A DNA stretch of 64,000 bases from Escherichia phage EPFV3-03/2025. Positions within the stretch are counted from its first letter, which is position 1; every line of letters begins with the position of its first letter. Below the pieces are notes generated by a model that was not told the DNA's origin, ran no database searches, and worked only from the letters and a program-made list of their open reading frames with translations. Position numbers and translations under genes: made by a program. Below are positions 8,049 through 51,459 of the stretch, in pieces. Location: the sequence record PV435126.1; one strand, written 5' to 3'.

Positions 8049-10027
8049 TTGTAAACAGTAATGAAACTAAAGCAGTGCTAACTGGGAATTTGGAGGTCAC
8101 AAGGGGATCAATTTCTCTGAACAAAGAGACTTTTGGGTTAATCATTAAAGGGATTTATGAAGATAAGGTGCTGGCAAGCTGCCGTGAACCAATCTTCAAT
8201 GCTGTAGACTCCCATGTTGAGTCTGGACGTGGTGATGTTCCGATCATCATTCACTCCCCTACAGATCTTGAACCATACTTCTTTGTGCAGGACGTTGGCC
8301 TCGGTATGTCAGAAGAGATGGTCCGCAACACTTTCATGAACCTCGGTGAGTCAACCAAGCGCAACAGCAACGCTCTGGTAGGCAATAAAGGTGTTGGTTC
8401 AAAGGCCCCGTTCAGCATGGTGGACACTTTCGATGTAATCAGTGTGCACAATGGTGTGGAAAGCACATATCTATTGTTCTTGGATCAGGGTATCCCAAAT
8501 GTCACCAAGATCCGTGAGCGGAAGACTGAAGAGCACAACGGGGTAAAAGTTCAGTTTCATGTTAAGAAAGAGCATGTTCTGAAATATCGCACTGCTATTG
8601 CATCATGTCTGCGCTATGCAAAATTTCCGTTCACTGTCACCGATCCGATGACGAGCAAGATGCTGGAGGGAGACAAAGTAGAGGCGCAGTATTATTATGA
8701 AAAAGATGGTTGGAAGATGACCATCCTGAAGGGCTATACCAGCTCTGACGAGAGTCGTGTGGTAATGGGTCACCAACCTTACCGTTCTAAGTTCCTGGAA
8801 ACACTAACAGATTATCCTGCAATTTGTGTAGAGATCCCTATCGGAGATTGCAATATTAACCCAGGGCGTGAGTGGACCATAGAAGGTCACGACGATGGTG
8901 GATTCCAAGATCGTTTGGAAGCTTTTGTCAAAGAAGGCATTCGCCTTCGTGGAGCAGAAGTTGTTGCAGAACTGGAGACAGCAAAAACATCCTCAGAAGC
9001 ACGCGAGATGATGAAGAACAGTGGAGTGTTCGGGCACATTTTCGGCAAGAATTTTATGTATGACCGCTGGGAAGAAACAGGGTTAGGGAGTTTGGGGGAC
9101 TGCGAGATCTTCGCTGGCGGCTTAAATAAAGGCCGCATAGGTTACGCCTGCTACGGAAAGGTAGAATTCTTACGGGGAGTTTATTTAGTATTTAACGACG
9201 GAGACGGCAAATATAACCGGAATAAGTGTAACTACTTAAGCGAGATCACCGGACGCAACGTTTTCTATTGCCGGAACACGGATCTGGTAAAAGAGTTTAA
9301 AGAGGCGGCACACCATCCGTTCTTTGCAGATACGGTCAAATTGTTATCAGAGCTCCCTCGCCGACCTGTGAAGAAAGGTGAAACAAAAACTCGTTATGAG
9401 CCCGGTTATTGGGTTAAAAAACTTGAGAAGGATGGTTACTTCCGTCGTGAGCGTATTACCAAGGCAGAGTTCAGGAAGATTAAGCACTGCATACCATATG
9501 AGGGGGATATCCAACGTGGAAGTTGTTGGCTAGGTCAGATGAGTAACATCTACCAGCAAAATTATGACCGTGTGCGTGCGGCACTCCAGATCCCTGAAGG
9601 GGAAGATCTATACCTGGTATCGGAATCTCGTCTGCTTTGGACTGATCCTGATTGCCAGTATGTTACAGAGAAGAATGTGGAACATTTGTTGAAAGAGGAT
9701 GCTTGGAAATTCTTACTGACTCGCGCAGCAAATGAAACTTCATATGACAGCCTGTATAGACAGTTGGGAAAAATTATCCCTATGCAAGATTTTGGAAATT
9801 ATAAGCCACATTTCCACAAGTGGGAAGGTAACACCACGTGGAAGTACGGTGAGCTGAATCATCGTGCCAAAATCTTAATCGCCAACCGGGTTAAGTGCGG
9901 GAAGGCATATATTGCGAGACTGGAAAAGAAATATCCACTTTTGAAGCATGTAGGCTTGAAATATTGGGACACTCCTGCTATGATTGAATACCGTGAACTG
10001 ATTGATACAAAGAATAACATCAAATAA
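8045..10027 (+). CDS. Hsp90-like GHKL ATPase domain protein (660 aa)
   Basis: Bergerat-fold motifs FNAVDSHVE (N box), DVGLGMSEEMV (G1), NLGESTKRNS, GNKGVGSKAPFS (G2); C-terminal about 500 aa unassigned. Confidence 0.6.
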   Translation: MIVNSNETKAVLTGNLEVTRGSISLNKETFGLIIKGIYEDKVLASCREPIFNAVDSHVESGRGDVPIIIHSPTDLEPYFFVQDVGLGMSEEMVRNTFMNLGESTKRNSNALVGNKGVGSKAPFSMVDTFDVISVHNGVESTYLLFLDQGIPNVTKIRERKTEEHNGVKVQFHVKKEHVLKYRTAIASCLRYAKFPFTVTDPMTSKMLEGDKVEAQYYYEKDGWKMTILKGYTSSDESRVVMGHQPYRSKFLETLTDYPAICVEIPIGDCNINPGREWTIEGHDDGGFQDRLEAFVKEGIRLRGAEVVAELETAKTSSEAREMMKNSGVFGHIFGKNFMYDRWEETGLGSLGDCEIFAGGLNKGRIGYACYGKVEFLRGVYLVFNDGDGKYNRNKCNYLSEITGRNVFYCRNTDLVKEFKEAAHHPFFADTVKLLSELPRRPVKKGETKTRYEPGYWVKKLEKDGYFRRERITKAEFRKIKHCIPYEGDIQRGSCWLGQMSNIYQQNYDRVRAALQIPEGEDLYLVSESRLLWTDPDCQYVTEKNVEHLLKEDAWKFLLTRAANETSYDSLYRQLGKIIPMQDFGNYKPHFHKWEGNTTWKYGELNHRAKILIANRVKCGKAYIARLEKKYPLLKHVGLKYWDTPAMIEYRELIDTKNNIK

Positions 10028-11243: not shown

Positions 11244-12613
11244 TGGAAAAAGGGCAGTACGATGTAGGCACAGATGCTGCCCTTGTTGCAATCATGAGTG
11301 GTGAGAATGTCTTCGTAAGTGGACCTGGTGGAACCGGGAAGACATATCTTATCAACATGATCCAGTCCATGTATGGAGACTCTTGCATAACGGTTGCCCC
11401 GACAGGGGTAGCCGCTTTAAACGTTAATGGAGCAACAGCGCACCGAACTTTCGATCTTGCCGCAGGTGTGAGCATGGAGTCAGACTGGACAGCAATAAGG
11501 GCAAAAACAGCAAAGCCTCTGAAAAGCAAGGCATTTACCATCCTAATTATCGATGAAATCTCTATGATCCGTGCTGACAAGTTCATAGAGATGGATAGAA
11601 AACTCCGCTTTCTTCGGAAAAATGACAAACCTTTCGGAGGCATTCAGGTGTTATTGTTTGGAGATTTCTACCAAGCGCCTCCAGTTGTCTCTTCCATGGA
11701 GAAAGAAGCCTACTTCAACTTCTACCACACAGATCTGTGTTGCTATACAGAATCTTGGGAGGATCTTAATCTTCACAATATAGCCTTAGTAGACCAGTTC
11801 CGTCAGGAATCTGTTCGCTTCGCCACAATGTTGAACTGTGTTCGTGAAGGTCGTCGCATAAAAGAGGTTGTAGCAGAGCTTAACACTCGTTGCTATCATG
11901 GAGGTGTCCCAACAGATGCTTTGACTATCTGCGCCACCAATAAGCAAGCAGAGGAGGTGAACAGACGTTTCTATGATGCCATTCAGGCCCCAGAGAAGAC
12001 CTACATTGGTAAAATGAAGGGTAAGTTCCCTTCCACACTGCCTGTGGAGCAGGAAATGAGGCTGAAGATAGGGATGAAGGTTATGATAACCTCAAACGAT
12101 GTTGACCCTACTCACAAAGTTCCGTATTATGTCAACGGTACACGTGCCACAGTGGTAAAATTCAAGACTAAATCCGTGATAGTTGAGCTAGAAGACGGGA
12201 CACAGGTTGAAATTGAGCCGAGATTGTGGGAGAATAACGAGTACAAACCTTCCCAGAGGTACAATATTGCCGAAAGGAAGATGGAGAAGTTCATAGAGAG
12301 GGTTGTGATCGGGTCTTATGAGCAACTCCCTTTGAAATCTGGGTACGCAGTAACATCGCATAAAAGTCAAGGACTTACGCTAGATTGTTACAACCTAGAC
12401 CTCGGAAAGAACGGAGCTTTCTCTCCCGGAATGACGTATGTTGCCTTGAGTCGGGTTAAGACGATACAAGGAATAAACTTGTTGCGTCCATTAAGAGAGG
12501 TGGATATTATTGTTGACCCGCGAGTCGTAGAGTTTTATAATACAACTTTCCCTGGCTTAGACGAGAAAGTCAGGAAAGATTTTGAAACTAGAGCAGAAAA
12601 GGGGGACGTATGA
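11243..12613 (+). CDS. Pif1/RecD/Dda-type superfamily 1 DNA helicase (456 aa)
   Basis: Walker A VSGPGGTGKTYL, Walker B IIDEISM, C-terminal GYAVTSHKSQGLTLD. Confidence 0.85.
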   Translation: MEKGQYDVGTDAALVAIMSGENVFVSGPGGTGKTYLINMIQSMYGDSCITVAPTGVAALNVNGATAHRTFDLAAGVSMESDWTAIRAKTAKPLKSKAFTILIIDEISMIRADKFIEMDRKLRFLRKNDKPFGGIQVLLFGDFYQAPPVVSSMEKEAYFNFYHTDLCCYTESWEDLNLHNIALVDQFRQESVRFATMLNCVREGRRIKEVVAELNTRCYHGGVPTDALTICATNKQAEEVNRRFYDAIQAPEKTYIGKMKGKFPSTLPVEQEMRLKIGMKVMITSNDVDPTHKVPYYVNGTRATVVKFKTKSVIVELEDGTQVEIEPRLWENNEYKPSQRYNIAERKMEKFIERVVIGSYEQLPLKSGYAVTSHKSQGLTLDCYNLDLGKNGAFSPGMTYVALSRVKTIQGINLLRPLREVDIIVDPRVVEFYNTTFPGLDEKVRKDFETRAEKGDV

Positions 12614-12948
12614 GTTTGTGGAGAAATATAGTTAACTACGTGTGTGGAAATCCAAATCCTGAAGAGAAGGCTGTTGTGATTCACGATTTTACTAAAAGAT
12701 CTCGTGAAAAAGACCTCCTGCTAACAAAGGTGATCGATAAAGACCCTGTAGGGGACTGGGCAGGGTTTGCGTTTACATCTGACAAATACACCTTTAACAA
12801 AGGTGACTACCTTGTTGTGGATTTTAACGAAGACATCGAGGGTGCTGAACCTTACTATCAGACCCTTGTCGTTGCGGAGTGTGTTGAGCTCTCTGCAAAC
12901 ATGCACAGTTTGATTCTTTTTGAGCTTGACTCTGAAGACCTTCAGTAG
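12610..12948 (+). CDS. hypothetical protein (112 aa)
   Basis: ORF with ATGA overlap with helicase stop. Confidence 0.45.
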   Translation: MSLWRNIVNYVCGNPNPEEKAVVIHDFTKRSREKDLLLTKVIDKDPVGDWAGFAFTSDKYTFNKGDYLVVDFNEDIEGAEPYYQTLVVAECVELSANMHSLILFELDSEDLQ

Positions 12949-17143: not shown

Positions 17144-20100
17144 ATGAGCATGTGGTCGTTCGATTTTGAGGCCTCTGGCTTGCTGGAAGACCCAGATCTT
17201 TATTATCACTGCGGTTTGTTTAAAGAGCTGAATAAGAACCGTTTTATGCTGTTCCTCCCCCTAAATGACCGCACACACTACTCTGAAGAGGATGTGGAGA
17301 AAGCTAAGAACTTCATTCTGGCAAAAAAGACCCTTTATACAGATTTTGAGGCTCGCATAGCAGATTTTTCAGAGTTGGAAGGCTGGCTTACAGGTAATTC
17401 AGATTGGTCACCTACGGCTTTGAACTGTCATAACTGCTACAGCTACGACTTTATGCTGATGGAAAGATTATCCGGTATTCATTTTGATATGTTCCGTGAT
17501 CCTAAATGCATGGGAACTATCAACGACCACCAGGTTAATCTGTTTGATACGTTAGCGATGAGTCGAATCTTGTGGCCTGACCGCCCTTTGCCAAAAGGTT
17601 GTCCGGACGCAGTATTCAATCCAGTTACCAAGAAAATGCAGCCTGTTGGGCCTCATGGCCTTATGGCATGGGGCTATGCCCTTGGTAACCAGAAAGTTCA
17701 AATCGATGACTGGCGTGAGCTTCCGCTGTGGAAGTATGTGGATCGTGTGTTCGAGGACGTTATCATTCAGGAGTTGCTCTGGAAGGAGTTGGTAGCTGAA
17801 TCAAAAGGTGTATTCTACGGCAAATCTGACATGCAGAACTTTATGTATGACCCTGCCAAAGAGAAGCCTAAAGGATTCAAGAAGATTACCTGGAAGAATG
17901 CATTACGCCGAGGCATGCTGCAGCATTTCCTGATGGAGCTGCAGGCTCGACAGGGTGTGTATTTCGACATAGATGGGGCTATTGCTTTACGTGACCGCTG
18001 CGATGCGTGGATGAAAGAGATCGCTGATCGTGTTGAACCACAACTTCCTTTAAAAGAGTTATCAATGTCTCAGCGGCCTAAGTTCCCTGAAAAGCCGTTT
18101 AACCAGGATGGGACAATCTCTAATAACGGTTGGAAATGGTTAAAAGACAAGCTTGGCTATCCTGTGGATATGGGTGCTTTAGAATTCAAAGCTCCGCCTA
18201 AGCGAGCCTTTACCTCCACAGGAGATGTCAGCAAAATGGGGATAAAATGGTGTGAAGAGATGGGCTGCAAAGACCCCGATAAGATGGCTGATTTCTTAAG
18301 GGGGTATATTAAAGGAACCTCTACACCGCACCCTTTACCTAAAGAACTAATGGATCAGGCAATAAGTGATCTGCAGCAGAAGCGGATGCCTGACTGCAAG
18401 ATACCTATGAAGATCAGCAACCAGGACGACATCAAGCGATACCTGATCAGTGCTGGTTGGCTCCCAACAATGTGGAGAACTAAGGATGTAACTAAAGACA
18501 GCAAGAAGAAAGCTTTACCTGATGCAGATGTTGATGCACGAGTATATGCATATATGGACGAGCTTTTGGAGTCAGAGTATTGTGACCTGATTATCAACTT
18601 CTGGAACAAAACTGATGCCAAGTTCCAGACAACCGTGCACAAGTTCCGAAGCTTCCCTAACTCAGAAAGGATTAAAAAGGAAGTGTTTGGGAAGATACGT
18701 AGAAAAGCCAGAGCGCTTATTACTTCTCCGCAACTGAAAGATACGTTTGGACACCTGTGCCCGAATCTTGAAAAATTGAACGGGGAGATGGCTAAAGATA
18801 TCGTTTTGTGGTTATCATTGCGAAACCGCAGATCGGTCCTTGATCCAATCAAGGAGGATAAGGTTGATACTGGTCTTCTTAATCATCCACGTTTGAAGAT
18901 TGACCATAAGCTTCCTGCTAAAAGTTCTGGATTAACAAACACTTCAAGACAGAAACACAGCATTTGTGCAAACATGCCTAAACCATCTCCTAAAGTGGTT
19001 ATGGGTAAAGAGATGCGTAGTCTGTGGGGTGTTCCTCCAGGATACTTTGAGATCGGTATTGACGGGTCTAACTTAGAGCAGCTTATTGGGGCTTGGGGTG
19101 CCTTTGAGTTTGACAACGGCCTGTATTATGATGTTGTAAGTAACGGCGATGCACACTGTTATTCAGGAGATACACAAATTCTCACGGAGAAAGGGTGGGT
19201 GAGGTTTGAAGATCTTGATCCGGGAACACAAGTGTTCCAGTACGATCACAACACCTCGTCGATGAACCTTGTTACTCCATTAAATTACGTTAAGCGTAGT
19301 TATTGTGGGGATATGTATCATTTCCACAACAGCAGTGTGGATTTTATGGTTACAGATCAACACAGGATGCTGACCGTGGATCACAGAAGCAATAAATTGT
19401 TTGAAGATTTGGCAAAAGACCTGAAAGCAGGTAAAGGGTCTAATTCAGGAAGAAGGTTTATCCATGCGGCAGAGTTTTATGGGAATACAACCTTATCTCC
19501 TGCCCAGGTTAATTTGCTTATTGCTATTCACGATGATGGGTACTTGCATACAAATAAGGACGGCAGCATCGTGTGCAGGATTCAGGCCGGGAAGGGCAGA
19601 AAAGTTGCAACGCTTTTAGATACTTTTTCTGCTCTAAGCCTTAGTTATGTAGAGCAGAGCGGGAAAACCACAAAAGGAGGCTTACTGGCGAGAAGGTTCC
19701 AATTCCACGTTCCGTCCTGGGTATTTGAGTTTTTGGACAGCAATAAGGATTTCACCTACAACCTGATGGACCTTGATAAAGAATCTAAAAACCTGTTTAT
19801 AGCTTCTTTATCTAACTGGGACGGGTGGGTATCTCCCGAAGGTGGAAAAGTTGCCTACTACTCTCAGGCCGAGTGCAGGAAGAAATCTGTAGAGGTTGTG
19901 TCTGCGCTGGCTACTCAGTGTGGTTTACGGAATAATACGGTGGCGATTCACAAAAAAGGTCGTTCCGTACAGCACAGAATCACGATTGGTAGCAAACAGA
20001 GAGCAGGGTTGCTGACACTATCTAAAGAGCCTGTCGGGGTGAGCGGTTCTTTGGTTTATTGCGTTACCGTCCCTTCTGGAGCAATCATTGTGAGAAGGAA

Positions 20101-20536
20101 TGGTAAAGTGGCAGTGTGCGGTAACTGTAATAACGCCAAAGCTTACTCTTCTGTAGCAGGCAAGGAGATTTCCCGTAACGATGGTAAGCCTGTCACGTAC
20201 GGTGTTATGTACGGGGCACAAAAAGATAAAGTTGCAGACATGCTGGATATCTCTCCAGAGTTGGGGCAAAGGGTAATCGATGCGCTTTGGGATGCCAACC
20301 CAGGTCTTAAGGGGCGTAAAGAGGATCTGGAGAAATTCTGGGAAGCAACAGGTAAGAAATTTATCTACTCTTTTGACGGTCATGCCATCTGGACCCGATC
20401 TAAACACTCTTTACTTAATGCATACCAACAGAATGGTGGTGCATCGTTGTGTGACTTAGTTGGGATACTCATGCACCACCAAATGGTGAAGCGTGGGTGG
20501 TACGATGAAGGTGTCCGTCGTATTATTTATTACCAT
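17144..20536 (+). CDS. family A DNA polymerase, exon 1 (contains intein)
   Basis: 3'-5' exo motif SFDFEASG; motif A-like DGSNLEQL...GDAH; T7-like motif B RNDGKPVTYGVMYGAQ after the intein; ORF lacks motif C unless spliced to exon 2. Confidence 0.9.
19157..20125 (+). mobile_element. intein (323 codons) with LAGLIDADG-like endonuclease motifs inside DNA polymerase
   Basis: Begins CYSGDTQIL (block A), TDQH (block B), LLIAIHDDGY and FIASLSNWDGW (LAGLIDADG-like), ends ...VYCVTV...RRNGKVAVCGN followed by Cys. Confidence 0.75.
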
Positions 20537-20812
20537 AAATAACATTGTGGCTTCATAGAGTAATCTATGTCGAATAACCTCTTTAACTGCGGGAAGCCTA
20601 AACCTTATGGCAAGGTAATCCGCAACGAAGCGCTCAAAAGAGCGAACGCTCAGAGGCCATTCCGAAAGGAAGTAGACCAGCAAGTGCGGTCGAAATGGGA
20701 GGATTCCTGTGGTTGCTTATCATAGGAATATGAGATGGTCCGATCCTACGTGAAAACGTATGGCTATGCACGTAATGGTGCGGGGTAGCTTAACGACCTA
20801 CCTGAACTATTG
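20537..20812 (+). mobile_element. group I intron (276 nt, no ORF) in DNA polymerase gene
   Basis: Starts after exon U (cat|), ends with G before gat; P-like aactgcgggaag 20585-20596, Q-like aatccgcaac 20617-20626, S-like gagatggtccga 20732-20743; splicing restores in-frame HDE motif C. Confidence 0.6.
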
Positions 20813-21166
20813 GATGAGTACCAACTTCAAGTCCCTGACACGCCTAAGTATAAGACTGTGTACACCTTCGACACAATTGAAGAACTGGAAGCATTTAAGG
20901 CAGAACAGGAGGCCAAACTTCATGTGTTTGACGGTCATAAGTACAAAAAGGCACGCAAGGATGAGAACGGAAACGAAGTGGTTGACAGAGACGGAAACAC
21001 GGTGTACGATCCTATTCTGAACGATGACGGAAAGCTTGAACTTATCTGGAGCCCTGTGGGTGAAATGGTGGTGCATTGCTTCTGGCAAGCTTCTAAAATG
21101 ATGGGCGTCCCGTTCCAGATCACAGGTGAATACCTGTGCGGTCGTAATTGGGGTGATTGTCACTAA
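20813..21166 (+). CDS. family A DNA polymerase, exon 2 (C-terminal 117 aa)
   Basis: Same frame as exon 1; DEYQLQV completes YYH-DE motif C; C-terminus VPFQITGEYLCGRNWGDCH resembles Pol I terminal G-NW-H. Confidence 0.7.
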   Translation, partial: DEYQLQVPDTPKYKTVYTFDTIEELEAFKAEQEAKLHVFDGHKYKKARKDENGNEVVDRDGNTVYDPILNDDGKLELIWSPVGEMVVHCFWQASKMMGVPFQITGEYLCGRNWGDCH

Positions 21167-21215
21167 TGTAAACTATCAACACATGGAAGTGTTGTTGAGC
21201 AAAGAGGAGACTTTT

Positions 21216-21500
21216 ATGGTAGTAGAACCGACAAAAACATTTACCTCCATGACTATTCCTGTTATTATGCAGGTAGAGTGCGTTCAGGTGTCCCAAGTGT
21301 GGCCAGGTACTAAAATTCCAACAGGGCCTGATTTCTTCCAGGTTGGAAAGGTGTACAATGTATGGAAGGCACCGGATTGTTACCCTTTCATTAAAGATGA
21401 CCGTGGAATGTTATGGTATCTGGGAAATGATTTGACACTACATCTTGGAAATGCTATTATTGCAGTGTTCCGGCTCAACAAGAAGGGGGCAGATCAATGA
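21216..21500 (+). CDS. hypothetical protein (94 aa), KDDxG-W paralogue family
   Basis: Start moved to ATG 21216 after AAGAGGAG; contains IKDDRGMLWYL. Confidence 0.45.
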   Translation: MVVEPTKTFTSMTIPVIMQVECVQVSQVWPGTKIPTGPDFFQVGKVYNVWKAPDCYPFIKDDRGMLWYLGNDLTLHLGNAIIAVFRLNKKGADQ

Positions 21501-21724
21501 CAACTTTGGTTAAAGCTACGTTTGTAGAAGAAAAGATGACAGGCTTGTCATTCTTTAAAGAAGGAAAGACCTACAAGGTTTATTACGATAAGGATCGCGG
21601 AAACAATATGATCGAAGACGAGGAAGGTATTTCCTGGTATATCTCTCACCTGGCAAATGGTGAGTATCATATCTATGGAACCACCCTACTTGCCAAGTTT
21701 GTAGCTGCTGAAGAGGATCTATGA
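21497..21724 (+). CDS. hypothetical protein (75 aa), KDDxG-W paralogue family
   Basis: IEDEEGISWYI motif; ATGA overlap with neighbours. Confidence 0.45.
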   Translation: MTTLVKATFVEEKMTGLSFFKEGKTYKVYYDKDRGNNMIEDEEGISWYISHLANGEYHIYGTTLLAKFVAAEEDL

Positions 21725-21915
21725 AAGTAAAGTATCTGGCTGAAGGTATGAGTAGGTATTTTACCCTTGGAGAAGAGTATTGGCCCTTTACGGAAAATGG
21801 AGATGTATACGTGAAGGATGACCAAGGTGTGCCGTGGTTTCTGCACCATAATGGGTTGGGGTATTCCATCTACTGCGGTGCAGTGAACAACACAACCCTT
21901 GCAGAGTTTGTCTAG
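21721..21915 (+). CDS. hypothetical protein (64 aa), KDDxG-W paralogue family
   Basis: VKDDQGVPWFL motif. Confidence 0.45.
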   Translation: MKVKYLAEGMSRYFTLGEEYWPFTENGDVYVKDDQGVPWFLHHNGLGYSIYCGAVNNTTLAEFV

Positions 21916-21925
21916 AGGAGGCAGA

Positions 21926-22297
21926 ATGTTAGTAAAAGGTACCCACACAGTCAAGCAACGTATTGAGGTTGAGATTGATGATTGTGAGCTGAAGCATATC
22001 TTACGGTCGTGCTCCAACGTTTTGCTCCTCAGTATTCTCCAGGAGCGAGCGGAGAACGAGTTCTTAAATGCACTGGCAGGCCGTCCTGGGGACTTCTGTG
22101 TGCGTAAGCGTGAAGATCATAAGTCATGGTTGTGGGAAATCGATGCCGACTGGGATTACCACAAAAATGAGGGCATAGATGAGCCTATTCGTGAATTGAC
22201 AGATAAAGAGATTCAGATGTACAATGAAGTTTGTCATTGGGCAAAACGCCAACAAATTTACCTCGACCCTGCGTGGATGATTGAAAATAGCCATTGA
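21926..22297 (+). CDS. hypothetical protein (123 aa)
   Basis: Start moved to ATG 21926 after GAGGAGG. Confidence 0.45.
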   Translation: MLVKGTHTVKQRIEVEIDDCELKHILRSCSNVLLLSILQERAENEFLNALAGRPGDFCVRKREDHKSWLWEIDADWDYHKNEGIDEPIRELTDKEIQMYNEVCHWAKRQQIYLDPAWMIENSH

Positions 22298-22322
22298 CAA
22301 GAAGTAAGATTGGGTATAAGAT
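22294..22322 (+). promoter_or_regulatory. sigma70-type promoter
   Basis: -35 TTGACA 22294-22299, 17-bp spacer, -10 TAAGAT 22317-22322. Confidence 0.4.
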
Positions 22323-22373
22323 GCTTCACACAAACAGAGAGTTTATTTTTAAATAATTAAGGAGACTGCTAAG

Positions 22374-22628
22374 ATGAAAATCACTTTGAAGCCAGAATGT
22401 GTTGCAAATGACCGAGCTTTTAAAGATTGCACAATCGGTGCAATTTATGAAGCAGAGTTTTGTGAGAACCCTCTGGTAAAAGCCCTTCTGGAAGAAGGGG
22501 CACCTTTATCACAAGAAGAACTTGATGAGTTGGAAAACTCAGCCCAGTGCCTTACCTTTAAAGATGATGAAGGAGATTCTGTCTGGTGCACTGTTAACGA
22601 AGTAGTTTTTGTAAAACCTGAGCATTAA
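22374..22628 (+). CDS. hypothetical protein (84 aa), paralogue of 22692..22964
   Basis: LKPECVANDRAFKDCT...FKDDEGDSVWCT parallels the next ORF. Confidence 0.5.
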   Translation: MKITLKPECVANDRAFKDCTIGAIYEAEFCENPLVKALLEEGAPLSQEELDELENSAQCLTFKDDEGDSVWCTVNEVVFVKPEH

Positions 22629-22631
22629 TAC

Positions 22632-22660
22632 TTGACAACATCGATAGGGCCTAATACAAT
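22632..22660 (+). promoter_or_regulatory. sigma70-type promoter
   Basis: -35 TTGACA 22632-22637, 17-bp spacer, -10 TACAAT 22655-22660. Confidence 0.5.
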
Positions 22661-22691
22661 GGCTCTATCAAAACGGAAGGGGACCACAACA

Positions 22692-22964
22692 ATGACCAAA
22701 CAGTATCAACGAATTAAAGCCAAGGTTAAGCCAGATTACTTAGAGAAGGACTCTGCTTTTCGGGACTGCACTGCAGATAAAGTTTACACAGGTGCTGTTC
22801 TGTTAAACGATAAATTTGAAGTGGATGGGCTTGGCAAAGAGGCTACTATCAAGGATGACCAGGGAGATTATGTTTGCTGCACCACACGCGAGCTAGAAAT
22901 CTTAGAATACTTCGGTGAAATCTTCACCTCTCTTGATGATTACTTAGATGACGAGGCAGAGTGA
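22692..22964 (+). CDS. hypothetical protein (90 aa), paralogue of 22374..22628
   Basis: Start at ATG 22692; VKPDYLEKDSAFRDCT...IKDDQGDYVCCT. Confidence 0.5.
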   Translation: MTKQYQRIKAKVKPDYLEKDSAFRDCTADKVYTGAVLLNDKFEVDGLGKEATIKDDQGDYVCCTTRELEILEYFGEIFTSLDDYLDDEAE

Positions 22965-23365
22965 TGAAAAACATTTGGGATATCAATATCTTTGAAGCCT
23001 CTGAGCTTGACGGTGCCGATGGGGTTATTATAGTTTCTGATGGAAAGGCAACACTGACCTCTGGACTGACCTATGAGGACACTACCTACGCATTGGGCGA
23101 TCTTGCCTTGTTGAAATCAACAGGCGACTCTCTGGAAGAACGTCTGCAAGGATTTGCCTTTAAAGAAGGCACAAACACCACACTGATGTGCACTACACGC
23201 ACTGTTCAGTTGGGCAACGGGGTATATATGGTCATTGCAGTGTGCCCCAAATTCAGCAACATTAATAAAGATGATGCTGACGCTGTCAACGACGTGGTTG
23301 TCCTATTCGTGGGTGACGCTATGGCAGATCTGATGAATGCAGGAGAAGCAGCAAATGAAGACTGA
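22961..23365 (+). CDS. hypothetical protein (134 aa)
   Basis: ORF with ATGA overlap with upstream gene. Confidence 0.45.
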   Translation: MMKNIWDINIFEASELDGADGVIIVSDGKATLTSGLTYEDTTYALGDLALLKSTGDSLEERLQGFAFKEGTNTTLMCTTRTVQLGNGVYMVIAVCPKFSNINKDDADAVNDVVVLFVGDAMADLMNAGEAANED

Positions 23366-23657
23366 AAACATTACACCAGAAGGATTCCTGAAAGTATACC
23401 GTGAACTATTGTATACCACAGAGGATAGTGTTCTAGAGTACCCAGAATATCTTTTGCTATATAAGTATCTGCAGGAAGCTGGTGAAAATCTTCCAATTAG
23501 CGCAGAAGGGGGTCCAAACTGGGTCTACAGTGCATGGAGAAAGGTTGACATTCTCCCAGATCCCGGTAAAGATATGGTAGTTTGGCAGCTTATCAACAAC
23601 ATCGGGATTCCAATCTTTGATGAAGCTGTTAAAATCTATTTTGAACTTGACGATTAA
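23355..23657 (+). CDS. hypothetical protein (100 aa)
   Basis: Start moved to ATG 23355 after AGGAGAAG. Confidence 0.45.
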   Translation: MKTENITPEGFLKVYRELLYTTEDSVLEYPEYLLLYKYLQEAGENLPISAEGGPNWVYSAWRKVDILPDPGKDMVVWQLINNIGIPIFDEAVKIYFELDD

Positions 23658-23674
23658 TATCAGGAGACCTTAAG

Positions 23675-23920
23675 ATGGCTGAAGTAGTTGCTCGTGCAGG
23701 ACAGAAAGTGCGTTGTGTTGAAGTGGGTTTTGGTGGCAAAGGGTGTCAAAACTTGACTCAAGGTAAGGAATACACTGTTGTTTCTGGCGGTGGTGACAAA
23801 AGTATTGTGTTCGATGACCATATTCTGGATGTTGAAAACTTTGAAATAATTGACGATGATGGTGATCCAATCACCTGCCTGCTGGACGGGAATTGGGGAA
23901 CTTTTGAAGTGATTGGCTAA
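23675..23920 (+). CDS. hypothetical protein (81 aa)
   Basis: ORF in co-oriented array. Confidence 0.45.
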   Translation: MAEVVARAGQKVRCVEVGFGGKGCQNLTQGKEYTVVSGGGDKSIVFDDHILDVENFEIIDDDGDPITCLLDGNWGTFEVIG

Positions 23921-23957
23921 CAAATACCTGTTGTAATTTACAGAAGGAGATGCTAAA

Positions 23958-24368
23958 ATGGTGTCTCCTTTATGTTGTTCAAATAAAATCGGAGATTCCA
24001 TAATGGAACAAATGAACGATCAAGCGTCGGTTGCGATGAACGAGCAAGAACAACCTCAAGAATTTTTCTTAGGGTTAAGCAAAGATCAGGTGTCTCTCCT
24101 GCTAGTGCTCTCTTCTTTCATGGGGAGACTTCAGGAGCTCACACAACAACCAGAGGCTGAACAATTATTTCAGGCTCTGCGCGAAGAAGAAAAATATCGT
24201 CGTTTGGATTATGCCTTAGGTTGGGTAGCTCAGCAACGAGATATGCTAATGGCCCTTTCTGGGACGACAAGTTTTGCAATGGGCCTGTTGGCTCAAGTGC
24301 AAGACAAATTAATTCAAGCAGGGTTTGCACACACAGCAAACACCAACGAAGAACAAGGAGACAAATAA
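23958..24368 (+). CDS. hypothetical protein (136 aa)
   Basis: ORF preceded by AAGGAG. Confidence 0.45.
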   Translation: MVSPLCCSNKIGDSIMEQMNDQASVAMNEQEQPQEFFLGLSKDQVSLLLVLSSFMGRLQELTQQPEAEQLFQALREEEKYRRLDYALGWVAQQRDMLMALSGTTSFAMGLLAQVQDKLIQAGFAHTANTNEEQGDK

Positions 24369-25594
24369 TGAGCGTTATTCAACAATTTGCCAACCCGATG
24401 AATCCGCGTGAAACTGTTTTACTGGCTCACGGTATGATTAAACGTGTCAGCATCAAACCTATCAAAGGTGCTGATCCTACAACAGGTATTAAAACCACTG
24501 TGTGGCAAGGTAAGAAAATCGAGTCCAGTCACACCATCTCTTTACTGATTTCTGAACTGGATTCTTCTGATAACCTACTTCAAGGTGGTGAAGAAGTTTG
24601 GATCAGCATGGGTGATAAATTGCTCAAACCAGGTCATCAAGATTCCGTCTCTGTTAAAATTGATGACAAGTGGGAAACAGTAACGCCGGGATGGATCGTA
24701 AATATCCCTTTAAAGGCAAATGAGCATAACGGTAAGACCTACTACAAAGGCTCATTGGCTAAAATGGTTAAGCTGGGGGCAGGAGAGGCTCCAGCAGCAC
24801 CACAGCAACAAAAACAGCAACAAGGCACACAATCACAAGGCCAGAAGCAGAAACCTCAGCAGAATGCCAATCAGGACGTTTTACGCATCTATGGTGATGT
24901 GACTCAGATTGTTGGCAATGTGGTTACTGTCAATGACCACAAGATCGGTGAAGGTGCTATGGTTGTCTCCGATGAGCAGCTTAAAGACCTGATAGTTGGC
25001 GGTCGTGTTGCAGCTATTGTTGACAAAGACACCGGGAATATTATCAGCGGCTTTAAGGCCTACCCACCTAAAGCAGAGAACGGCACTCAAGGTTCTGGTG
25101 GCAAGCGTAAATCCTCTTACGACCCTATTGGTGTAGAGACGGGGCACAGCATCAATGCGTTGCAAATCATCCTAGATCGCGGATTCAAGGTTGACAGCCC
25201 TTTAGATGTGGCTAAAACATTGCACGTGGTCACCATCGAGCTTAAGAAAGAGTACGCTCAAGCCACCAACCGGACCGAAGATGAAGTAGGTGCCAGTGTT
25301 GGTAACGCGGTATTGAACGCTTGTCGCCGTATTGACAAGAAAACGAAAGTTGATGATTTTGCAGCAGCAATTACTGCAGAGGCAAAAGATGTCTTGACTA
25401 ATCTTGCTGAACCGTTGTATGATTGGATCAAGAACGGTGCTGGAGCCACTGACCATCAAGAGCCTCAAGCTGCCAAACAGGAAGGCGCTCCACAGCAAAA
25501 CACTGTAGACGCCCCTCCTGTAGATGATGACGGAGATGACCCGATGGATCAGAATCCAGCACAGTATGACTTCTGTGATGACATACCTTTTTAA
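24368..25594 (+). CDS. SSB-like protein with canonical SSB C-terminal tip (408 aa)
   Basis: Ends ...YDFCDDIPF (bacterial SSB-Ct DDIPF motif); Gln-rich linker; start at ATG 24368 after AAGGAG; N-terminal fold not verified. Confidence 0.6.
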   Translation: MSVIQQFANPMNPRETVLLAHGMIKRVSIKPIKGADPTTGIKTTVWQGKKIESSHTISLLISELDSSDNLLQGGEEVWISMGDKLLKPGHQDSVSVKIDDKWETVTPGWIVNIPLKANEHNGKTYYKGSLAKMVKLGAGEAPAAPQQQKQQQGTQSQGQKQKPQQNANQDVLRIYGDVTQIVGNVVTVNDHKIGEGAMVVSDEQLKDLIVGGRVAAIVDKDTGNIISGFKAYPPKAENGTQGSGGKRKSSYDPIGVETGHSINALQIILDRGFKVDSPLDVAKTLHVVTIELKKEYAQATNRTEDEVGASVGNAVLNACRRIDKKTKVDDFAAAITAEAKDVLTNLAEPLYDWIKNGAGATDHQEPQAAKQEGAPQQNTVDAPPVDDDGDDPMDQNPAQYDFCDDIPF

Positions 25595-44597: not shown

Positions 44598-44849
44598 TTA
44601 ACGTTCTACAAAAATACCATTCAGTTCGATAACCAGGAATTTCTGATCTTCACTATCGTCACGTGCTAGCACCTCACAGACGTAACGGTCATCTCCGTCA
44701 TCATCACAGTCAAATACAAGGCTGAGGACTTTATCATGATAAATCTTCGACACTACTGCCTCGTAAGTATTGCCGATTGTGAATCCAAGATAATCCCCGA
44801 TGCATTTGACAACAACATGGTCGCCAGCATTTAAGTCAATCTTCGTCAT
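44598..44849 (-). CDS. hypothetical protein (83 aa)
   Basis: Start moved to ATG 44849 after AAGGAG. Confidence 0.45.
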   Translation of the reverse strand: MTKIDLNAGDHVVVKCIGDYLGFTIGNTYEAVVSKIYHDKVLSLVFDCDDDGDDRYVCEVLARDDSEDQKFLVIELNGIFVER

Positions 44850-50618: not shown

Positions 50619-50813
50619 TTAGAATATTGCTTCTTCCATTGCACCTGAGAGCAACAAAGAGGTGATCTGGCTAACATTCATCTCAGACTCTACTTCCTCC
50701 CCTTTGAAAGGTTCGCGGCAGAATAGGACTGTTTCAGGACTTTTACTTCGAACAATATAATACAAATCATTCAATGTGTTGTAGTAATAAGTGTTAAAAC
50801 GTAAGTTTTTCAT
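50619..50813 (-). CDS. hypothetical protein (64 aa)
   Basis: ORF in co-oriented array. Confidence 0.35.
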   Translation of the reverse strand: MKNLRFNTYYYNTLNDLYYIVRSKSPETVLFCREPFKGEEVESEMNVSQITSLLLSGAMEEAIF

Positions 50814-51097
50814 TTTCTAGTCCCCTTCTTAGATTTTTGTGTAGAAACGCTTTCTGCAATACGAGACAAACGTTCTTCTGAAGCCTTGCCTATTCCAGGT
50901 TTTTTGAGTGGATTATCTTTATGACCACAATCCAATTGGATATTGGATACCTCTCCAACCTTGTAAGTCAATTCTAGCAAAAGGTTGTCGTCCTTGTCAA
51001 ATGTTCTTACGATAAATTTTTTATCGTTCTCCTGAACTTCATATCTGGTACCTGCAGTATACAGCATGGTGCCATCAGCATAGGATATCCAGATCAT
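50810..51097 (-). CDS. hypothetical protein (95 aa)
   Basis: ORF with ATGA overlap at both ends. Confidence 0.45.
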   Translation of the reverse strand: MIWISYADGTMLYTAGTRYEVQENDKKFIVRTFDKDDNLLLELTYKVGEVSNIQLDCGHKDNPLKKPGIGKASEERLSRIAESVSTQKSKKGTRK

Positions 51098-51459
51098 TGA
51101 GCCTCCTTCTGCTGCAACAGCATTAACTCTTTGTTAGAGATCTTTACTGCTGTTTTTATTGTTCCGTCTTTACGGAACCACGACCAGAACTCTACAGTGT
51201 CCCCACTATCAAGCAAAGCATACCCGTGGTAGAAGTCTTTGTCCTTAGACAGTTTCTCATCTATGTCTGCATCGACACATTCGTGATCCATAGCATTTTG
51301 CCTGAATGCATCGGTTATGCCAATGCACGCCTTGCTCTCAAGACTGGTATATCCGGTATCTTTTAATTCGGTTTCCCAAACCCAGTATCCTGCAAAAGCT
51401 ACGACAGTTACCAGCCCCATAGCAGCTACCAACTTTAATACCGATTTAATCTTTGCCAT
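51094..51459 (-). CDS. hypothetical membrane-anchored or secreted protein (121 aa)
   Basis: N-terminal hydrophobic segment LKLVAAMGLVTVVAFAGYWVW. Confidence 0.45.
   Translation of the reverse strand: MAKIKSVLKLVAAMGLVTVVAFAGYWVWETELKDTGYTSLESKACIGITDAFRQNAMDHECVDADIDEKLSKDKDFYHGYALLDSGDTVEFWSWFRKDGTIKTAVKISNKELMLLQQKEAQ

What the first reader, a model, noticed from the sequence alone, without database searches (positions are those of the whole stretch)
21216..22964. Tandem array of small paralogues sharing a KDD(Q/R/E)G..W motif
Five consecutive plus-strand ORFs just downstream of the polymerase carry (I/V)KDDxG(x)(P/S/L)W(F/Y)(L/I) or a close variant. 22374 and 22692 additionally share (L/V)KP(E/D)...AF(K/R)DCT. 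This looks like local gene duplication and divergence.
Basis: seen in the sequence. Interest (0 to 1): 0.5.

Follow-up and report, generated by a model that had tools for sequence, protein, structure and literature searches.

The report
Duplicated small beta-barrel phage genes
Downstream of the DNA polymerase of an rV5-like E. coli phage lie a duplicated triplet and a duplicated pair of tiny genes of unknown function; the triplet is predicted to fold like Gp54 of phage Bas11, a small protein known only for setting off a bacterial immune sensor, so this is a modest lead, not a new kind of system.

Summary
The window is a Vequintavirus (rV5/FV3-like E. coli myovirus). The motif is real and far from chance: all 4 six-frame matches to [IVF]KDD.G in 64 kb, and all 6 to a looser form, lie in this array.

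Formal alignment gives two paralogue groups, not one family of five. A-B-C (21216-21915) is a tandem triplet and E-F (22374-22964) a tandem pair; both are highly significant. They are separated by an unrelated gene, D. A link between the two groups is only suggestive (HHalign 14-44%). A further gene outside the finding, G (23675-23920), does join the A/B/C superfamily (HHalign 91%).

The motif is the hairpin between the third and fourth strands plus a core aromatic residue. It is a fold signature, not an active site.

The array is conserved across the genus under purifying selection and absent from sister genera. Remote relatives occur as 2-5 repeats within one polypeptide in replication modules of other phages.

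The most likely role is a set of non-enzymatic binding modules acting on host or replication factors. That role is inferred, not shown.

The parts
21216..21500 (+). Gene A (94 aa; rV5 gp219 / FV3_00205 orthologue). First member of the A/B/C paralogue triplet. Motif IKDDRGMLWYL begins at 21390.
   Evidence: Start codon and RBS. Smith-Waterman z = 11.2 against B. Full-length alignment. pN/pS 0.02. phrog_12922, unknown function.
21497..21724 (+). Gene B (75 aa; rV5 gp218). Central member of the triplet. Its start overlaps the stop of A (ATGA). Motif IEDEEGISWYI begins at 21611.
21721..21915 (+). Gene C (64 aa; rV5 gp217). Third member of the triplet. Its start overlaps the stop of B (ATGA). Motif VKDDQGVPWFL begins at 21811; most orthologues have VKDNFGTPWFL instead.
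21926..22297 (+). Gene D (123 aa; rV5 gp216). Not a member of either family. It is an unrelated backbone gene that interrupts the array.
   Evidence: No similarity to A-G. phrog_6273. It is the only gene of the block with homologues (35-39% identity) at the same position in Seunavirus 4MG and Mydovirus KB57.
22294..22322 (+). Sigma-70-like promoter match (TTGACA-17-TAAGAT) upstream of E. It lies at the position of the annotated rV5 promoter P220.
   Evidence: rV5 annotation. This is a consensus match only.
22374..22628 (+). Gene E (84 aa; rV5 gp215). Member of the E/F paralogue pair. Very acidic (pI 4.2), with an inserted acidic segment. Motif FKDDEGDSVWC begins at 22557.
   Evidence: Smith-Waterman z = 13.6 against F. 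HHalign 94.5%. Alignment with 14 invariant columns. pN/pS 0.09. pI.
22632..22660 (+). Sigma-70-like promoter match (TTGACA-17-TACAAT) between E and F.
   Evidence: This is a consensus match only.
22692..22964 (+). Gene F (90 aa from the ATG at 22692; rV5 gp214). Member of the E/F pair, with an acidic C-terminal tail. Motif IKDDQGDYVCC begins at 22848.
23675..23920 (+). Gene G (81 aa; rV5 gp211). Motif IIDDDGDPITC begins at 23846.
   Evidence: A profile built without G finds it at E = 1.2e-5 to 2.7e-5 among 910 window ORFs. HHalign 90.8%, E = 1.2e-6. phrog_4927.
23943..23971 (+). Terminator-like hairpin directly after G.
   Evidence: This is a pattern match only.
44598..44849 (-). ORF J (83 aa, MTKIDLNAGDHVVVKCIGDYLGFTIGNTYEA...FDCDDDGDDRYVCE). 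Possible dispersed member of the same superfamily.
   Evidence: E = 0.05-0.2 against profiles that do not contain it. The alignment covers the GxxY and DDDGD segments. Pairwise similarity is not significant.

Best explanation
**Shown.** The block holds two sets of tandemly duplicated genes for very small, mostly acidic, single-domain beta-barrel proteins.
- A-B-C is a triplet whose genes are probably translationally coupled through ATGA overlaps.
- E-F is a pair.
- G is a more distant relative of A/B/C.
- All sit in the replication/early gene block of a Vequintavirus, flanking an older unrelated gene, D.
- The genes are real, fixed across the genus and under purifying selection.
- A/B/C are predicted to adopt the rare six-stranded barrel with a long loop between strands 1 and 2 that was solved for Gp54 of phage Bas11. 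E/F are predicted to be five-stranded SH3-like barrels.
- The KDDxG..W motif maps to the tight turn between the third and fourth strands plus a buried aromatic residue. The other conserved residues (F, G, Y, A, F) are core or turn positions. The motif is therefore a fold signature and not a catalytic site.

**Inferred.** The proteins are non-enzymatic binding modules made early in infection. Each paralogue would bind a different host, or possibly phage-replication, macromolecule. Examples are neutralising a host defence or housekeeping factor, or being recognised by a host sensor. The only solved structural relative, Gp54 of Bas11, binds the zinc-finger-like sensor domain of CapRelSJ46 through residues at sequence positions resembling the FKxG and GxSW segments conserved in A/B/C. 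That correspondence is by eye only. Duplication then gave several specificities. In other phages the same module is instead strung as 2-5 repeats in one polypeptide.
For: **Paralogy.**

**Non-chance motif clustering.**

**Real genes.** pN/pS is 0.02-0.20. The array is present in 115 of 117 matching Vequintavirus records. Every gene has an RBS.

**Fold.**
- B model: pLDDT 90.1, built without templates.
- The motif falls at strand-turn-strand in both models.

**No enzyme or known domain.** Pfam is negative and all PHROGs are of unknown function.

**Remote relatives.** There are single-domain proteins and proteins with 2-5 repeats. They sit beside DnaB, primase, RecA, dNMP kinase and ArdA genes and occur in Enterococcus phages.

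**G membership.**

**Lineage-specific accessory nature.** The genes are absent downstream of the polymerase in Seunavirus, Mydovirus and Certrevirus, where only D is kept.

**Acidity.** pI is 4.2-4.9 for B, C, E, F and G.
Against: - No function has been measured for any member, and Gp54 itself has no known function.
- The link to Gp54 is structural only. HHalign of the A/B/C profile against the Gp54 sequence gives 0.1%, and profile searches of PDB sequences do not find it. Convergence on a small barrel cannot be excluded.
- The E/F to A/B/C link is weak.
- Strong purifying selection, especially on A (pN/pS 0.02), and the position inside the replication module would fit a housekeeping replication role as well as an arms-race role.
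- SH3-like barrels often bind nucleic acids.
Confidence: 0.55

Rival explanations
1. The two groups (A/B/C plus G, and E/F) are unrelated small barrels. The shared (K/E)DDxG is a convergent beta-hairpin turn motif. Only the within-group duplications would then be real, and there would be no five-member family.
For: All cross-group pairwise z scores are 2.1 or less. Cross-group HHalign on orthologue profiles is 0.6% or less and aligns only the 6-residue motif. The F model resembles generic SH3 domains and does not hit 9axb in its top 60. E and F rank only 12th and 13th of 327 ORFs against the enriched profile. D-x-x-G turns are common; for example, spurious ankyrin and propeller hits arose through 'IKNKEGKT' and 'DDEGNIWF'.
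Against: The motif occurs nowhere else in 64 kb, yet it occurs in two neighbouring families at the same position in the fold. An enriched profile lacking E and F aligns 41 columns, covering both the aF..G..Y and DDxGD segments, at 44% and E = 2.3e-4. Controls give 0.1-0.2%. The order of secondary-structure elements is the same up to the fifth strand.
Confidence: 0.4
2. The proteins are accessory factors of phage DNA replication or nucleotide metabolism. They would be small OB/SH3-like nucleic-acid-binding or polymerase/helicase-binding subunits, not host-directed effectors.
Against: The proteins are absent from the same locus in sister genera that have an orthologous polymerase. Essential replisome subunits are not usually genus-specific. 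Strongly acidic proteins (pI 4.2-4.9) are poor nucleic-acid binders. The closest solved structure, Gp54, is non-essential.
Confidence: 0.25
3. The ORFs are not functional genes. The region would be decaying or non-coding, and the repeats would be DNA-level repeats read in frame.
For: All are annotated 'hypothetical'. In phage Alma, A and E are split.
Against: pN/pS is 0.02-0.20 with pS of 0.05-0.32. Lengths and starts are conserved in 115 of 117 records. The predicted folds are confident. Every gene has an RBS. Paralogues are only 27-38% identical at the protein level, so there is no DNA repeat.
Confidence: 0.02

Closest known systems
Gp54 of Escherichia phage Bas11 (JohannLBurckhardt, Drexlerviridae), PDB 9AXB. 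It is the second trigger of the CapRelSJ46 toxin-antitoxin defence (Zhang et al., Nature 2024, PMC11578894).
SH3-like small beta-barrel fold (for example the RecD SH3 domain in 5LD2, FeoA, and the Sho1 SH3 domain in 2VKN)
PHROG families 12922, 12623, 12802 (A, B, C), 12544, 11936 (E, F) and 4927 (G); Pfam DUF7244
   Same: Each gene is a full-length member of its own PHROG (E = 1e-27 to 1e-66). Weak cross-hits mirror the paralogy found here. DUF7244 gives weak hits to G and to one repeat protein.
   Different: All these PHROGs are of 'unknown function' and are not grouped together. The DUF7244 hits are below Pfam's threshold (15-22 bits against a cut-off of 27).
Multi-repeat relatives in other phages (P0089, 346 aa with 4 repeats; P0092, 571 aa with 5; P0096, 388 aa with 5; P0098, 361 aa with 4; Enterococcus phage proteins)
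   Same: They carry the same module signature: (G)(D/M)x(V/I)(K/R)C ... (F/Y)(F/W)T.GK.Y.V ... (I/V).DD.G. They also lie in replication or early modules.
   Different: There the copies are fused in one polypeptide. Here they are separate, partly overlapping genes. Individual repeats match only at E = 1e-3 to 1e-8.

Membership tests
A/B/C paralogue family (this window) | Significant full-length pairwise and profile similarity | tested here: met
   Smith-Waterman z = 11.2, 9.8 and 5.3, with 0 of 1000 shuffles reaching the observed score. HHalign 80% and 67%. Eight invariant columns across 20 sequences.
E/F paralogue family (this window) | Significant full-length pairwise and profile similarity | tested here: met
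   z = 13.6. HHalign 94.5%, E = 7.6e-8. Fourteen invariant columns.
   Pairwise z is 2.1 or less, and HHalign on orthologue profiles is 0.6% or less. Enriched profiles give 13.7% with E = 2e-3 and 44% with E = 2.3e-4, against controls of 0.1-0.4%. As single sequences, E and F rank 12th and 13th of 327.
A/B/C superfamily including G | G is detected by a profile that does not contain it | tested here: met
   hmmsearch E = 1.2e-5 to 2.7e-5 among 910 window ORFs, the first non-seed hit. HHalign 90.8%, E = 1.2e-6.
Gp54(Bas11)-like six-stranded barrel | Six-stranded small beta-barrel with a prominent beta1-beta2 loop that superposes on 9AXB | tested here: met
Gp54(Bas11)-like six-stranded barrel | Sequence homology to Gp54 | tested here: not met
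   HHalign of the A/B/C and enriched profiles against Gp54 gives 0.1%. 9axb is not found by profile searches of PDB sequences at E up to 10.
Gp54(Bas11)-like six-stranded barrel | Binds and activates CapRelSJ46 | not testable with these tools
   This needs co-expression toxicity or binding assays. Even Gp54 homologues from Bas5, Bas8, Bas10 and SECphi27 do not activate.
Gp54(Bas11)-like six-stranded barrel | The same fold in E/F | tested here: not met
Pfam DUF7244 | Score above the gathering threshold of 27 bits | tested here: not met
   G scores 15.3 bits (E = 0.021) and A, B, C, E and F give no hit. Only 2 of 31 superfamily sequences hit, and weakly.

The most novel reading that the evidence does not exclude
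A/B/C, G, possibly E/F and J, the several Bas11 small ORFs that match the same profile, and the multi-repeat proteins of other phages together form a large, so far unrecognised superfamily of Gp54-like small barrels. Phages would carry these in multiple copies as a diversified toolkit that binds host immune sensors or other host proteins. The fold called 'very rare in nature' would then be common among phage ORFans. Vequintavirus paralogues would be candidate triggers or inhibitors of CapRel-type or other defences.
Probability: 0.15. Interest if true: 0.6.

Novelty: new member of a known kind. Interest (0 to 1): 0.33.

Why it matters
Small early phage ORFans are the main reservoir of anti-defence proteins and of the triggers that bacterial immune systems sense, and most cannot be classified by sequence.

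Nine 'hypothetical' genes are resolved here into two duplicated families, one remote relative, and three genes (D, H and I) that showed no similarity to them.

One family is tied by predicted structure to the only solved protein of this fold, Gp54 of Bas11. That protein directly binds the CapRelSJ46 immune sensor, which gives a concrete experiment: test rV5-type gp217-219 and gp211 against CapRel and other defences.

The work also suggests that the Gp54 fold is not a one-off and that the module can exist as separate genes or as fused repeats.

On its own, a paralogous cluster of small phage genes is an ordinary finding.

Tried and rejected
- **Pfam scan of all ten genes in the block.** Only I matches a family (DUF7238). 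The others have nothing above threshold.
- **Word-indexed homologue searches with B, the A/B/C alignment and the E/F/G alignment.** These returned only proteins from E. coli records and vequintavirus-size contigs, apparently orthologues, with no remote relatives.
- **tblastn of B against 50,697 phage records.** Hits were confined to the genus, plus one weak hit in phage Ivi (E = 0.09). That hit proved to be the C-terminal domain of a two-domain protein carrying the same signature.
- **Exhaustive profile search.** Of 17 hits, I judged five to be repeat-driven false positives from their aligned repeats and set them aside. P0091 has ankyrin-type repeats, P0099 is a Vgb-lyase propeller by Pfam, and P0090, P0094 and P0097 have other repeats.
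- **Sequence link to Gp54.** None was found.
- **Foldseek of the F model against BFVD.** This was meant to link E/F structurally to A/B/C. Only the F and E orthologues and one Edwardsiella phage protein (E = 0.01) were found, so it did not decide the question.
- **tblastn of P0096 against phages.** No match.
- **ORF J against each family, pairwise.** Not significant.
- **Positive or diversifying selection as a signature of an arms race.** Not seen at whole-gene level; pN/pS is 0.20 or less.
- **Literature.** The rV5 genome paper does not mention these genes as paralogues. My one search for Vequintavirus transcriptome or early-gene work listed nothing that looked relevant by title, and I did not open those papers.

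Full report
**Source and gene map.** The window is a Vequintavirus, an rV5/FV3-like E. coli myovirus of about 137 kb. Positions 20500-24500 are 96.9% identical to phage YP-6 and 96% identical to FV3.

With RBS-supported starts, the genes downstream of the DNA polymerase are:

| Gene | Coordinates | Length | rV5 orthologue |
|---|---|---|---|
| A | 21216-21500 | 94 aa | gp219 |
| B | 21497-21724 | 75 aa | gp218 |
| C | 21721-21915 | 64 aa | gp217 |
| D | 21926-22297 | 123 aa | gp216 |
| E | 22374-22628 | 84 aa | gp215 |
| F | 22692-22964 | 90 aa | gp214 |
| H | 22964-23365 | 134 aa | gp213 |
| I | 23337-23657 | 106 aa | gp212 |
| G | 23675-23920 | 81 aa | gp211 |

All are annotated 'hypothetical protein' in the rV5 and FV3 records. 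A/B and B/C overlap by ATGA.

In the six-frame translation of the whole 64-kb window, [IVF]KDD.G occurs four times (A, C, E, F). The looser [ILVFM][KEI]D[DE].G occurs six times (A, B, C, E, F, G). Every occurrence is in-frame in this array and none is elsewhere. This clustering cannot be chance. Three details need correcting. The five ORFs are not consecutive, because D intervenes. F has no tryptophan. G is a sixth motif-bearing gene outside the stated coordinates.

**Formal alignments.** Smith-Waterman scores against 1000 shuffles gave:
- A-B z = 11.2
- B-C z = 9.8
- A-C z = 5.3
- E-F z = 13.6
- every A/B/C versus E/F pair z of 2.1 or less
- E-G z = 2.6

I built orthologue profiles from seven other vequintaviruses. 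HHalign on these gave A-B 80%, B-C 67% and E-F 94.5%. Cross-group values were 0.6% or less and aligned only the six motif residues. A/B/C align over their full length with invariant F20, Y26, D41, G44, W47, A66 and F68, and near-invariant G23 (B numbering). E/F share 14 invariant columns, including DxAFxDC and DDxGDxVxCT. There are therefore two clear tandem-duplication families and not one family of five.

**Are the genes real?** The whole block is present at 88-97% DNA identity in 115 of 117 matching phage records. Pooled pairwise pN/pS values are A 0.02, B 0.20, C 0.13, D 0.08, E 0.09, F 0.06 and G 0.13. The polymerase exon gives 0.04. These are translated genes under purifying selection. 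There is no gene-wide signal of diversifying selection.

**Structure.**
- AlphaFold2 on the A/B/C alignment, without templates, gave a confident all-beta model of B: pLDDT 90.1, pTM 0.78. It has strands at 2-10, 25-31, 36-40, 46-48/51-53, 56-60 and 64-70, and a short helix in the long loop between strands 1 and 2.
- Gp54 directly binds the pseudo-zinc-finger domain of the CapRelSJ46 toxin-antitoxin defence and activates it. The barrel opens on binding. Contacts involve G24, I25, S39, L41, W43 and W53.
- I retrieved the Gp54 sequence. It shows no profile-level similarity to A/B/C (HHalign 0.1%; PDB sequence searches). By eye, FKKGIEI and SGLTW correspond to FKEGKTY and EGISW of B.
- In both models the (K/E)D(D/E)xG motif is the turn between the third and fourth strands, and the following aromatic or cysteine residues lie in the fourth strand. 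Together with the nature of the invariant residues, the motif is a structural signature and not an active site.

**Wider family.**
- The exhaustive HMM search of 1.84 billion representatives with the A/B/C profile found only 17 proteins at E of 1e-3 or less.
- After removing repeat-driven false positives, two kinds of true relative remain. Single-domain proteins: P0088 and P0093, a divergent B-C pair with adjacent locus tags on a 136.8-kb contig, and P0100. Multi-repeat proteins with 2-5 copies of the module in one chain: P0089, P0092, P0095, P0096 and P0098.
- P0092 sits between DnaB, primase, helicase and RecA genes. P0096 sits near dNMP kinase, nucleoside deoxyribosyltransferase, an actin-like partition gene and ArdA.
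- P0089-like proteins occur in 94 phage records, 91 of them Enterococcus phages.
- The module signature is (G)(D/M)x(V/I)(K/R)C...(F/Y)(F/W)TxGKxYxV...(I/V)xDDxG. No Pfam family covers it.

**Do G and E/F belong?**
- A profile of A/B/C plus these remote repeats contains no E, F or G sequence. It finds G as the first non-seed hit among 910 window ORFs at E = 1.2e-5 to 2.7e-5. HHalign gives 90.8%, E = 1.2e-6. G is a member.
- The same profile aligns to the E/F family at only 13.7% (E = 2e-3).
- After adding G, J and Bas11 members, still without E or F, the value is 44% (E = 2.3e-4) over 41 columns that include both the aF..G..Y and DDxGD segments. Controls D, H and I give 0.1-0.4%.
- As single sequences, F and E rank 12th and 13th of 327 window ORFs.
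- I rate common ancestry of E/F with A/B/C/G at roughly even odds.
- ORF J (44598-44849, minus strand) is a possible dispersed member, with E = 0.05-0.2 before it was included in any profile. Pairwise comparisons are not significant.
- Several small ORFs of Bas11 itself match the enriched profile (bas11_0048 at 7e-4, _0061 at 9e-4, _0041 at 2.5e-3) and show the signature.

**Synteny.**
- In Seunavirus 4MG, Mydovirus KB57, and Certrevirus CR3 and phiTE, I scanned the 4.5 kb downstream of the orthologous polymerase (3.4 kb in phiTE, where the record ends). It contains no detectable A, B, C, E, F or G homologue.
- Only D has homologues there, at 35-39% identity. D is therefore the older backbone gene. 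The triplet and the pair are genus-level accessory genes on either side of it.
- Sigma-70-like promoter matches are enriched in the block: 15 against 6.7 ± 2.5 expected. One lies at the site of annotated rV5 promoter P220 upstream of E. A terminator-like hairpin follows G.
- The rV5 paper places these genes in the transcription unit comprising genes 10-1-238-164, which also contains the polymerase and helicase genes. It does not mention any paralogy here.

**Interpretation.**
- Shown: tandem duplication (three genes plus two), a remote sixth member, real and conserved genes, confident barrel models, and a strong predicted-structure match of B to Gp54.
- Inferred: the proteins are small, mostly acidic (pI 4.2-4.9 except A), non-enzymatic binding modules made early in infection. 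Their paralogues would bind different host or replication factors.
- The only functional precedent is Gp54's direct binding to a host immune sensor. Gp54's benefit to its own phage is unknown.
- Rivals: convergence of the motif between the two groups (0.4); a replication-accessory role (0.25); non-genes (0.02, refuted).

**Verdict.** Paralogous clusters of small ORFans are common in large phages, so interest is moderate to low. The Gp54 link and the separate-gene versus fused-repeat forms of the module are the useful leads.

Noticed in passing
window 20527-20762 (+): A group I intron (Rfam RF00028, 64.7 bits, E = 6e-15) interrupts the DNA polymerase gene inside motif C. Exon 1 ends ...RRIIYYH(K*) at 20542 and the downstream ORF resumes (L)DEYQLQV... 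near 20810. FV3 carries an HNH endonuclease ORF at this place. Phages magaca and B9-1 have an uninterrupted polymerase.
   Followed up: partly
window 19157-20125 (+): A probable intein of 323 aa lies in the DNA polymerase (residues 672-994, CYSGDTQIL...KVAVCGN followed by C). It is absent from the FV3 polymerase, which otherwise aligns end to end. There is a weak Hint_2 hit (E = 9e-4), and by eye there are LAGLIDADG-like segments (LLIAIHDDGYL, LFIASLSNWDGWV). The same gene therefore carries both an intein and an intron.
   Followed up: partly
window 44598-44849 (-): An 83-aa ORF (J) carries the family signature (GDHVVVKC...FTIGNTYEA...FDCDDDGDDRYVCE). It may be a dispersed extra copy on the opposite strand. 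Statistical support is marginal.
   Followed up: partly
window 50813-51133 (-): An ORF (K: MIWISYADGTMLYTAGTRYEVQENDKKFIVRTFDKDDN...) gives a weak match to the enriched profile (E = 0.02-0.1; HHalign 14%).
   Followed up: no
L004 501-818 (phage APECc02) and protein P0034: Some A orthologues have an in-frame 11-aa tandem duplication of the motif region (APDCHPFIKEK / APNCYPFIKDD). Duplication therefore also acts within the gene.
   Followed up: no
protein P0058 (131 aa, metagenomic contigs): This is an F-H fusion. The N-terminal 72 residues of F are joined to the C-terminal part of H, which implies a deletion across the F/H junction in some vequintaviruses.
   Followed up: no
L009 (phage Bas11, MZ501085.1) 8760-8930, 12579-12944, 17370-17555: Bas11, the phage that encodes Gp54, also has several other small ORFs that match the A/B/C-derived profile and show the GKxY...DExGD signature. 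These are bas11_0041, _0048 and _0061, with weaker matches to _0071 and _0079. The module appears widespread among E. coli phage ORFans.
   Followed up: partly
L003 (phage vB_Eco_Alma) 1501-1722 and 2661-2813: A and E are each split into two ORFs in this record. These are apparent frameshifts, due either to sequencing errors or to pseudogenes.
   Followed up: no
GenBank records MG0656xx, matched by window 20500-24500: Sixteen records named 'Campylobacter phage', with C. jejuni given as host, are 88-92% identical to E. coli vequintaviruses over this block. The labels are probably wrong or reflect contaminating coliphages.
   Followed up: no
window 20500-24400: Sigma-70-like promoter matches are about twice the shuffled expectation (15 against 6.7 ± 2.5). 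Several lie inside coding sequence, for example 21432-21460 within A and 22196-22225 within D.
   Followed up: no
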